Shown here: positions 58,181 through 60,273 of the stretch, piece after piece | How the letters are laid out: each line of letters begins with the position of its first letter | How positions within the stretch are numbered: position 1 is the stretch's first letter | Source: the human T2T-CHM13v2.0 reference genome, Homo sapiens | Direction: 5' to 3' (one strand) | NCBI RefSeq assembly: GCF_009914755.1 | Contig: NC_060931.1 | Length of the DNA: 64,000 nt | The notes under the pieces: generated by a model | Databases searched by the model: none | Told to the model about the DNA's origin: nothing | What the model saw: the letters and a program-made list of their open reading frames with translations, nothing else | Made by a program: the position numbers and the translations under genes

Positions 58181-58308
58181 AGTTATGTTATGGAGACTGG
58201 CTTATGCACAAATCTTTCTAATGGTTATATATAAAGCACTTGAAGTCTCTATTATTTTATAATAGGCAATACCTAGATAAATAATGAATTTAACTCAAAA
58301 GAGATGGG

Positions 58309-60273
58309 GTCAAATTGTCCCTCTTTGCAGACGACATGATTGTATATCTAGAAAACCCCATTGTCTCAGCACAAAATCTCCTTAAGCTGATAAGCAACTT
58401 CAGCAAAGTCTCAGGATACAAAATCAATGTACAAAAATCACAAGCATTCTTATACACCAACAACAGACAAACAGAGAGCCAAATCATGAGTGAATTCCCA
58501 TTCACAATTGCTTCAAAGAGAATAAAATACCTAGGAATCCAACTTACAAGGGATGTGAAGGACCTCTTCAAGGAGAACTACAAACCACTGCTCAAGGAAA
58601 TAAAAGAGGATACAAACAAAATGGAAGAACATTCCATGCTCATGGGTAGGAAGAATCAATATGGTGAAAATGGCCATACTGCCCAAGGTAATTTACAGAT
58701 TCAATGCCATCCCCATCAAGCTACCAATGCCTTTCTTCACAGAATTGGAAAAAACTACTTTAAAGTTCATATGGAACCAAAAAAGAGCCCGCATCGCCAA
58801 GTCAATCCTGAGCCAAAAGAACAAAGCTGGAGGCATCACACTACCTGACTTCAAACTATACTACAATGCTACAGTAACCAAAACAGCATGGTACTGGTAC
58901 CAAAACAGAGATATAGATCAATGGAACAGAACAGAGCCCTCAGAAATAACGCCGCATATCTACAACTATCTGATCTTTGACAAACCTGAGAAAAACAAGC
59001 AATGGGGAAAGGATTCCCTATTTAATAAATGGTGCTGGGAAAACTGGCTAGCCATATGTAGAAAGCTGAAACTGGATCCCTTCCTTACACCTTATACAAA
59101 AATCAATTCAAGATGGATTAAAGACTTAAACGTTAGACCTAAAACCATAAAAACCCTAGAAGAAAACCTAGGCTTTACCATTCAGGACATAGGCATGGGC
59201 AAGGACTTCATGTCTAAAACACCAAAAGCAATGGCAACAAAAGCCAAAATTGACAAATGGGATCTAATTAAACTAAAGAGCTTCTGCACAGCAAAAGAAA
59301 CTACCATCAGAGTGAACAGGCAACCTACAAAATGGGAGAAAATTTTTGCAACCTACTCATCTGACAAAGGGCTAATATCCAGAATCTACAATGAACTCAA
59401 ACAAATTTACAAGAGAAAAACAAACAACCCCATCAAAAAGCGGGCAAAGGACATGAACAGACACTTCTCAAAAGAAGACATTTATGCAGCCAAAAAACAC
59501 ATGAAAAAATGCTCATCATCACTGGCCATCAGAGAAATGCAAATCAAAACCACAATGAGATACCATCTCACACCAGTTAGAATGGCAATCATTAAAAAGT
59601 CAGGAAACAACAGGTGCTGGAGAGGATGTGGAGAAATAGGAACACTTTTACACTGTTGGTGGGACTGTAAACTAGTTCAACCATTGTGGAAGTCAGTGTG
59701 GCGATTCCTCAGGGATCTAGAACTGGAAATACCATTTGACCCAGCCATCCCATTACTGGGTATATACCCAAAGGACTAGAAATCATGCTGCTATAAAGAC
59801 ACATGCACACGTATGTTTATTGCGGCATTATTCACAATAGCAAGGACTTGGAACCAACCCAAATGTCCAACAATGATAGACTGGATTAAGAAAATGTGGC
59901 ACATATACACCATGGAATACTATGCAGCAATAAAAAAGGATGAGTTCATGTCCTTTGTAGGGACATGGATGAAATTGGAAAACATCATTCTCAGTAAACT
60001 ATCGCAAGAACAAAAAACCAAACAATGCATATTCTCACTCATAGGTGGGAATTGAACAGTGAGATCACATGGACACAAGAAGGGGAATATCACACTCTGG
60101 GGACTGTTGTGGGGTGGGGGGAGGGGGGAGGGATAGCATTGGGAGATATACCTAATGCTAGATGACGAGTTAGTGGGTGCAGTGCACCAGCATGGCACAT
60201 GTATACATATGTAACTAACCTGCACAATGTGCACATGTACCCTAAAACTTAAAGTATAATAATAAAAAAAAAA
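58309..60273 (+). mobile_element. 5'-truncated young L1 (L1PA2-like), ORF2 RT C-terminal part to poly-A; inactive
   Basis: Begins at [14 protein letters not shown]. +1 frameshift at about 58620 and a stop at 59777. The 3'UTR has GAGATCACATGG, GCATTGGGAG and GCTAGATGACGAGTTAGTGGG. No TSD at the 5' end. Confidence 0.9.

What the first reader, a model, noticed from the sequence alone, without database searches (positions are those of the whole stretch)
58181..58320. Right junction contains a direct and an inverted short copy of the left junction, 48.7 kb away
Seen: after the Alu half come 106 bp I could not match elsewhere in the window (58181-58286). Then comes AATTTAACTCAAA (58287-58299), identical to 9511-9523 just outside the left breakpoint. 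Then AGAGATGGGGT (58300-58310), the reverse complement of ACCCCATCTCT (9529-9539). The L1 follows through a shared GT. Established: short direct and inverted templated inserts mark polymerase-theta end joining and microhomology-mediated template switching. Inference: both ends were processed in one repair event, which ties the block to a single insertion. Caveat: AAAAGAG also matches the L1 consensus just upstream of GTCAAATTG, and the 13-mer is AT-rich.
Basis: partly seen in the sequence, partly recalled or inferred. Interest (0 to 1): 0.75.

Follow-up and report, generated by a model that had tools for sequence, protein, structure and literature searches.

The report
One catastrophic repair built POMZP3
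The human fusion gene POMZP3 sits in a patchwork of ten joined DNA pieces from chromosomes 1 and 7, and two of the joints carry short copies of other joints' cut ends, so the patchwork was likely assembled in one cancer-like break-and-repair event in an ape ancestor's germ line.

Summary
58178-58297 is a 120-bp inverted shard of chr1p31 (chr1:83,022,180-061), the donor of both flanks. Eleven bases of the 13-mer are native there; the templated copy is the left one, inside a 22-nt insert (9505-9526). The inverted 11-mer adds only five bases to L1 sequence and copies the Alu cut site, present both 120 bp and 48.7 kb away. Mapping all donors gives ten junctions. Four cut sites keep both sides, overlapping by 9, 11, 12 and 12 bp (the last needs one substitution), and each leaves a long body and a 120-390-bp tip. 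Three tips plus a 977-bp piece form a tandem chain at 56604-58297. The left insert copies two other cut sites and the right insert a third, so these breaks were likely open together. The chr1 and ZP3 pieces differ from their donors by about 1.2-1.5%. Best reading: one germline chromothripsis-like event with polymerase-theta-type joining created POMZP3 and the chr1-to-chr7 duplication. Ape genomes could not be tested. No description turned up in ten literature searches.

The parts
1..9504 (-). Inverted 49.3-kb body of the chr1p31 donor (chr1:83,022,071 to 82,972,781). It starts at window -39,740 with cut site Q and ends at donor end P.
   Evidence: 1.45% substitutions
9505..9526 (+). Left junction insert, 22 nt: 8 nt matching the interior of the 120-bp shard, the 11-nt duplicated end of cut Q, then 7 nt of L1 cut T joined through a 3-nt microhomology
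9527..9538 (+). Cut site V (inside an Alu), copy 1 of a 12-bp duplication; copy 2 is 58169-58180
   Evidence: donor chr7:77,738,280-269 lies under both ends of the block
9527..25411 (-). ZP3 3' exons and flank (donor chr7:77,738,280 down to about 77,722,300); gives the 3' exons of POMZP3
   Evidence: interior 13.5-19 kb not aligned
25385..25411 (.). Alu-Alu crossover in 27 identical bases, joining a ZP3 intron to sequence about 25 kb downstream in the donor
   Evidence: alignment
25412..31294 (-). ZP3-DTX2 intergenic piece (donor 77,746,9xx to 77,740,945), now part of a POMZP3 intron
31292..56604 (+). POM121C-like 5' exons, promoter and upstream region (donor 76,727,084 to 76,752,374); 3-nt microhomology at its left end, which is the gene-fusion joint; ends at cut U
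   Evidence: 38.9-54 kb inferred collinear from constant offsets
56604..56993 (-). 390-bp inverted tip of cut U (donor 76,752,752 to 76,752,363); 12-bp overlap with the body if one substitution is allowed, 6 bp if not
56995..57973 (+). 977-979-bp piece of the POM121-upstream duplicon (donor 76,761,677-76,762,653), 8.9 kb beyond the preceding piece
57971..58180 (-). 210-bp tip of cut V (donor 77,738,478 to 77,738,269), ending in the 5' half of the split Alu
58178..58297 (-). 120-bp tip of cut Q from chr1 (83,022,180 to 83,022,061); its last 11 bases (58287-58297) are the Q duplication
58298..58308 (+). Right junction insert, 11 nt: L1 bases from just upstream of cut T, then an inverted copy of cut V entered and left through 4- and 2-nt microhomologies
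58309..64000 (+). chr1 body from cut T (chr1:83,026,544 onward): 3' 2 kb of a full-length chr1 L1, then unique chr1 sequence. 58309-58317 is the 9-bp T duplication; its other copy ends the 243-bp L1 tip at window -39,742.
   Evidence: far end at chr1:83,330,058 / chr7:78,225,171

Best explanation
The right junction is the last link of a ten-junction patchwork of chr1p31, ZP3 and POM121 pieces that was likely assembled in one germline break-and-repair event, which would also have created the POMZP3 fusion gene. Shown: the piece order; four cut sites whose two sides both survive with 9-12-bp overlaps; a 120-390-bp tip beside each; inserts at two junctions that copy other junctions' cut ends. Inferred: (1) a stretch of chr1p31 and the local ZP3/POM121 region were broken in one compartment (micronucleus or chromosome bridge) by staggered cuts; (2) resection and clipping left long bodies and short terminal tips and lost 2.5-8.9 kb next to each tip; (3) a low-processivity polymerase, most likely polymerase theta, primed ends on one another through 1-4-nt microhomologies and wrote the inserts (the left insert reads like an abandoned Q-to-T joint) before the final joins; (4) an Alu-Alu crossover, before or during the event, put ZP3's 3' exons behind the incoming POM121 promoter and 5' exons; (5) the allele was fixed around the human-chimpanzee-gorilla ancestor. 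The core claim that cuts Q, T and V were open together is stronger (about 0.85) than the claim that the POM121 fusion belongs to the same event (about 0.6).
For: Donor map and overlaps. chr1 is the intact source: full-length L1 with its target-site duplication on both sides, and the 300 bases beyond R and the 2 kb beyond P are single-copy in the genome. Cross-templating: the left insert holds the 11-nt Q duplication (31 of 100,000 shuffles and 0 of 14,436 AT-matched real 22-mers reach this against the Q, T and V duplicated sites) followed by 7 nt of T; the right insert holds V inverted (1 of 1024). Sequential circle insertions would need three later cuts to fall within 400 bp of existing joints (rough odds 1e-5). 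Pure template switching would need independent switch points to overlap by 5-20 bp three or four times (1e-4 or less even in a 300-bp hotspot) (both, post hoc). Similar ages: chr1 49 kb 1.45%, chr1 right body 1.39%, intergenic piece 1.34%, ZP3 flank 1.28% and 1.24%. The V tip is joined directly to the POM121 chain, tying that piece to the event. Piece sizes resemble the 150-200-bp medians of tandem short template jumps (PMC7347108, passages).
Against: No ape genome was examined, so simultaneity rests on junction anatomy alone. POM121 pieces are closer to their donors (0.78-1.03%) than the chr1 pieces are; non-CpG values of 1.14+-0.09% (chr1), 0.88+-0.25% (intergenic) and 0.40+-0.25% (POM121 2.6 kb) do not all overlap, which needs gene conversion, a lost donor or a later step. 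The DTX2P1-side copy beyond the far end differs from its original by only 0.46%, so the region was reworked or homogenised later. Against a wider break-site library the left insert is less exceptional: 41 of 5000 shuffles and 26 of 992 real 22-mers. The 243-bp L1 tip cannot be assigned by sequence (4 against 5 mismatches to two chr1 L1s; genome search empty). The U overlap and the V-to-R microhomology each need one later substitution. V and U lie in Alus. Donors are present-day human paralogues, not the true ancestral alleles.
Confidence: 0.62

Rival explanations
1. Nested circular intermediates in sequence: a ZP3/POM121 circle opened at Alu V joined a chr1 piece; that 98-kb circle opened at Q and integrated into the L1 at T of an existing chr1 duplication.
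For: All three duplications are direct repeats in nested order T(Q(V..V)Q)T, and both the ZP3 unit and the chr1 R-Q-P piece are circular permutations of their donors. Flipped block order is the signature in PMC7450558 (text parts 1-2 of 4).
Against: Each opening point lies only 120-243 bp from another joint (rough odds 1e-5). The P-to-V joint, which should close before Q and T are cut, already carries Q and T sequence. The 390-bp inverted tip is not predicted.
Confidence: 0.13
2. Two events: a complex event made the chr1 copy and cuts Q, T and V, while the POM121-ZP3 fusion (Alu-Alu crossover, POM121 swap, 390 and 977-bp pieces) arose earlier or later.
For: POM121 pieces are less diverged. No insert links cut U or the fusion joint to Q or T. 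The Alu-Alu joint is of a different, homology-based kind.
Against: The 210-bp V tip is bounded by the POM121 joint itself, and the 390-bp tip has the same tip-and-overlap form as the others. POM121 copies plausibly exchange sequence (inference; the RefSeq table marks a recombination region at 33746-34113).
Confidence: 0.17
3. Single-pass replication template switching (MMBIR/FoSTeS, cycle of templated insertions) with no physical cutting of the donors.
For: Net copy gain with donors left intact, 1-3-nt microhomologies at 5 of 10 junctions, short templated pieces; cycles of templated insertions in PMC7025897 (passages).
Against: It does not explain why both sides of four sites are kept with 9-12-bp overlaps. 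A copy made first and then cut is part of the best explanation.
Confidence: 0.06
4. L1-endonuclease cuts produced the 9-12-bp duplications, as in retrotransposition-driven germline chromothripsis.
For: Duplication lengths fall in the target-site range (recalled); an Alu-Alu joint is present; a report of this kind is cited in PMC6988253 (title only).
Against: No TT/AAAA start at Q, T or V on either strand, and none seen at U; no new poly(A)-tailed insert at any junction; the L1 was already in the chr1 donor.
Confidence: 0.02

Closest known systems
Tandem short template (TST) jumps after chromosome-bridge breakage (Umbreit et al. 2020, PMC7347108, passages)
   Same: Chain of short pieces in tandem (390, 977, 210, 120 bp) taken from break ends in kb-sized hotspots on different chromosomes; little microhomology.
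   Different: Fixed in the germ line; 3-5 ends per hotspot, not about 10; each tip overlaps its parent body by 9-12 bp, which the passages I read do not describe.
Segmental duplications through circular DNA intermediates (Chicote et al. 2020, PMC7450558)
   Same: Permuted block order, short duplications and indels at opening points, great-ape age.
   Different: Three donor regions, inverted pieces, foreign DNA in the closing joints, templated inserts shared between joints. This locus is not among the 24 clusters of Table S1.
Cycles, chains and bridges of templated insertions in cancer (Li et al. 2020, PMC7025897, passages)
   Same: Copies of distant templates strung together at one locus with copy gain, placing a promoter before another gene's exons.
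   Different: Somatic there; here paired overlapping breakpoints point to real cuts.
Polymerase-theta-mediated end joining / MMBIR templated inserts (general features recalled; PMC8421209 passages)
   Same: Inserts of 11 and 22 nt copied, direct and inverted, from break-proximal sequence through 1-4-nt microhomologies.
   Different: Templates are the ends of other breaks, one on another chromosome, not only the two ends being joined.
POMZP3 itself (Kipersztok et al. 1995, seen only as cited in PMC7928326 and PMC4888837)
   Same: Known bipartite POM121-ZP3 transcript.
   Different: The passages seen say nothing on the junctions or how the locus formed.

Membership tests
Polymerase-theta-type end joining | Short microhomology at joints | tested here: met
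   1-3 nt at 5 of 10 junctions (one needs a substitution); 1-nt inserts at 2 (one needs a substitution), templated inserts at 2, 27-nt Alu homology at 1
Polymerase-theta-type end joining | Short inserts templated from break-proximal sequence | tested here: met
Polymerase-theta-type end joining | Dependence on POLQ | not testable with these tools
   ancient fixed event
TST jumps | Tandem chain of short (about 200 bp) pieces | tested here: met
   390, 977, 210, 120 bp in a row at 56604-58297, plus a 243-bp piece
TST jumps | Pieces come from break ends clustered in 1-10 kb hotspots | tested here: met
   4 of 5 short pieces abut the end of a long piece; 4 ends in 4.5 kb on chr1, 3 in 2.7 kb near ZP3
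TST jumps | About 10 breakpoints per hotspot | tested here: not met
   3-5 per hotspot
TST jumps | Origin in a broken chromosome bridge | not testable with these tools
   no cell-level evidence possible
Circular-intermediate duplication | Flipped block order in the same orientation | tested here: met
   ZP3 unit permuted at V; chr1 R-Q-P permuted at Q
Circular-intermediate duplication | One donor closed end to end with only micro-indels | tested here: not met
   P and R are separated by the 48.7-kb block; the ZP3 unit holds 26.7 kb of POM121 duplicon
Circular-intermediate duplication | Opening point distinct from and unrelated to the closing joint | tested here: not met
   120-243 bp away in 3 of 3 cases
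L1-endonuclease-driven chromothripsis | TT/AAAA-type cut sites | tested here: not met
   0 of 3 printed flanks (Q, T, V); U read by eye
L1-endonuclease-driven chromothripsis | Alu-Alu homologous joint | tested here: met
Chromothripsis / chromoanasynthesis | All junctions formed at once | tested here: inconclusive
   cross-templating links Q, T and V; phylogenetic test not possible

The most novel reading that the evidence does not exclude
A single cancer-type catastrophe, with tandem short-template chains and a distinctive tip-and-overlap scar at four staggered cuts, was fixed in the great-ape germ line and in one step produced a 350-kb interchromosomal duplication, the POMZP3 gene and a POM121 repeat that now serves as a recombination substrate. 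The scar could be searched for at all segmental-duplication joints.
Probability: 0.55. Interest if true: 0.72.

Novelty: new variant of a known kind. Interest (0 to 1): 0.58.

Why it matters
How interspersed segmental duplications and fusion genes arise in apes is open; mosaics are usually read as stepwise accretion (recalled). Here base-level scars suggest that a ten-piece mosaic and a transcribed fusion gene arose at once, by the repair process seen in tumours. The scar (both sides of a cut kept, 9-12-bp overlap, 120-390-bp tip, inserts copied between joints) can be searched genome-wide, and the one-event claim can be tested directly in complete ape assemblies.

Tried and rejected
Simple target-site duplication by the 13-mer: rejected, since the left copy is inside an insert and the true Q pair is 58287-58297 with window -39,740. 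A 5'-truncated L1 insertion at 58309: rejected, since the chr1 donor holds the full element with both target-site copies. In-place inversion of the block: rejected, since all duplications are direct. The DTX2P1-side copy as a sister product of the same event: not supported (63 window-only against 14 and 12 differences in 5604 columns). Assigning the 243-bp tip by genome search: empty and uninformative. One search was a self-alignment with no use. Literature: ten searches found no account of these junctions; for POMZP3 alone I saw the listing of 40 of 88 papers. Table S5 of PMC7450558 was seen only in part, its figure supplement could not be read, and the coordinate terms may not have matched its format. 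The 1995 POMZP3 paper and the distal 7q11.23 deletion paper were not seen. No earlier scan findings were seen.

Full report
Observation. The two matches are exact at the stated places. The 13-mer occurs twice in the window, and 0 of 3179 other 60-bp windows share 13 bases with 58181-58310 (17 share 11). The inverted 11-mer is an Alu motif with 11 occurrences in the window, and 16 of 3179 windows reach it.

What the 'unmatched' stretch is. A genome search gave two places for 58181-58300: the window and chr1:83,022,061-83,022,175, minus strand. Both flanks of the POMZP3 block also come from this part of chr1. Aligning 90 kb of chr1 to 144 kb of chr7 gave this order in window coordinates: a 243-bp L1 piece (-39,984 to -39,742; chr1 83,026,310-552, plus); a 49.3-kb body (-39,740 to 9504; 83,022,071 down to 82,972,781); the block; a 120-bp piece (58178-58297; 83,022,180 down to 061); then chr1 from 83,026,544 onward (58309 on), ending at 83,330,058 (the interior 290 kb was not aligned). 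chr1 is the source: it holds the full-length L1 with an 18-bp target-site duplication on both sides, and the 300 bases beyond the shard and the 2 kb beyond the body are single-copy. So chr1 site Q (11 bp) and L1 site T (9 bp) are each present on both sides of a cut, 98 kb apart on chr7.

The block. The two Alu halves are one Alu of the ZP3 3' flank, overlapping by 12 bp (site V, chr7:77,738,269-280). Inside, ZP3's 3' part joins sequence 25 kb downstream through an Alu-Alu crossover in 27 identical bases. A 3-nt microhomology then leads into POM121C-like sequence (31292-56604), followed by a 390-bp inverted piece, a 977-bp piece and the 210-bp V tip. The 390-bp piece overlaps the end of the POM121 body by 12 bp (site U) if one substitution is allowed, 6 bp if not. 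The sequence before the first junction belongs to the same POM121-upstream duplicon and ends 7.6 kb from the 977-bp piece in the opposite orientation, which suggests a local source for the POM121 pieces (inference). In all there are ten junctions: five with 1-3-nt microhomology, two with 1-nt inserts, two with templated inserts and one Alu-Alu; two of these readings allow one later substitution.

The inserts. The left insert (9505-9526) has 8 nt matching the shard's interior, the 11-nt Q duplication and 7 nt of T, with Q and T overlapping in three bases; 21 of its 22 bases are covered by such matches. Against the Q, T and V duplicated sites only, 31 of 100,000 shuffles and 0 of 14,436 AT-matched real 22-mers reach 11 bases. 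Against a wider 1400-base library the figures are weaker: 41 of 5000 and 26 of 992, and 137 of 5000 and 41 of 992 for coverage. The narrow test was chosen after seeing the match. The right insert (58298-58308) has L1 bases from just upstream of T and an inverted copy of V; only five bases are new, and 1 of 1024 (narrow) or 6 of 1024 (wide) alternatives would match as well. Its template could be either V end. Thus the P-to-V joint carries Q and T, and the Q-to-T joint carries V: the three cuts were very likely open together.

Geometry. Each of the four cuts leaves a long body on one side and a tip of 243, 120, 210 or 390 bp on the other, with 2.5-8.9 kb lost behind the tip. Rough post hoc odds are 1e-5 for sequential circle insertions landing so close to earlier joints, and 1e-4 or less for independent template switches overlapping three times. 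The 243-bp tip is tied to T by position only (4 against 5 mismatches to two chr1 L1s; empty).

Age. Substitutions against donors: chr1 49 kb 1.45%, chr1 right body 1.39%, intergenic piece 1.34%, ZP3 flank 1.28% and 1.24%, POM121 pieces 0.78-1.03%. With recalled human-chimpanzee (about 1.2%) and human-gorilla (about 1.6%) divergences, this points to the African great-ape ancestor or near it. The POM121 values are lower and need gene conversion or a later step. The DTX2P1-side copy past the far end is only 0.46% from its original, so the far junction may be later.

Mechanism. Most likely a copy of chr1p31 and the local ZP3/POM121 region were broken together by staggered cuts, the ends were trimmed into bodies and tips, and a polymerase-theta-like activity primed ends on each other before final joining. 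An Alu-Alu crossover supplied the ZP3 permutation that, with the POM121 promoter and 5' exons, forms POMZP3. The piece order, overlaps and inserts are shown; simultaneity, enzyme, compartment and date are inferred.

Comparison. It works like TST jumps (PMC7347108, passages) and cycles of templated insertions (PMC7025897, passages), but with fewer breaks per hotspot and paired overlapping ends, and it is fixed in a species. It shares permuted order with circular-intermediate duplications (PMC7450558, text parts 1-2 of 4) but fails two of their three features, and it is absent from the 24 clusters of Table S1 (Table S5 seen in part). L1-endonuclease sites were not found. POMZP3 is known as a bipartite transcript (PMC7928326, passages; PMC4888837, passages). 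Chromoanagenesis as an evolutionary force is argued in general terms in PMC6988253 (passages), and germline templated inserts are reported in PMC8421209 (passages). Ten searches found no description of these junctions, but most subscription papers are not covered.

Verdict. New variant of a known kind; interest 0.58.

Noticed in passing
window 57650-57775 (minus), inside the 977-bp piece: An open KRAB-box exon (Pfam PF01352, E 6e-24). The piece matches chr7:5.17 Mb at 95%, which fits the RBAK-derived exons upstream of POM121 described in PMC4888837. The predicted lncRNA LOC124906604 ends in this exon and starts beyond the window in chr1-derived sequence, so it would be a second chimeric transcript crossing the junction chain.
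   Followed up: partly
L036, L056 (chr7:78,225,169-78,235,563): The copy of the ZP3-DTX2 intergenic region past the far end of the chr1 duplication is only 0.46% from the original, keeps Alu V intact, and joins chr1 sequence through a 3-nt microhomology: a younger duplication or a converted tract.
   Followed up: partly
chr1:83,022,476-83,028,520 (L024): Full-length L1 with an 18-bp target-site duplication on chr1; a second L1 near chr1:83,011,700-83,015,000 lies in the inverted body, about 5% from it.
   Followed up: partly
window 33746-34113: The RefSeq recombination region lies in the POM121C-like piece (99% to POM121C), so the event likely created this recombination substrate. The source paper was not seen.
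   Followed up: no
distal of the window: PMC4092221 (passages) places a breakpoint of the human-chimpanzee ancestral paracentric inversion at hg18 chr7:76,646,908, by my recalled offsets about 0.5 Mb distal. The duplicon before the first junction also has a 98% copy at chr7:103.68 Mb, near the other breakpoint by the same rough offsets. A link in time was not tested.
   Followed up: no
window -43,427 to 34,904: LINC03009 starts in the duplicon before the first junction and ends in the POM121-like piece, so by the annotation it spans five of the ten junctions.
   Followed up: no
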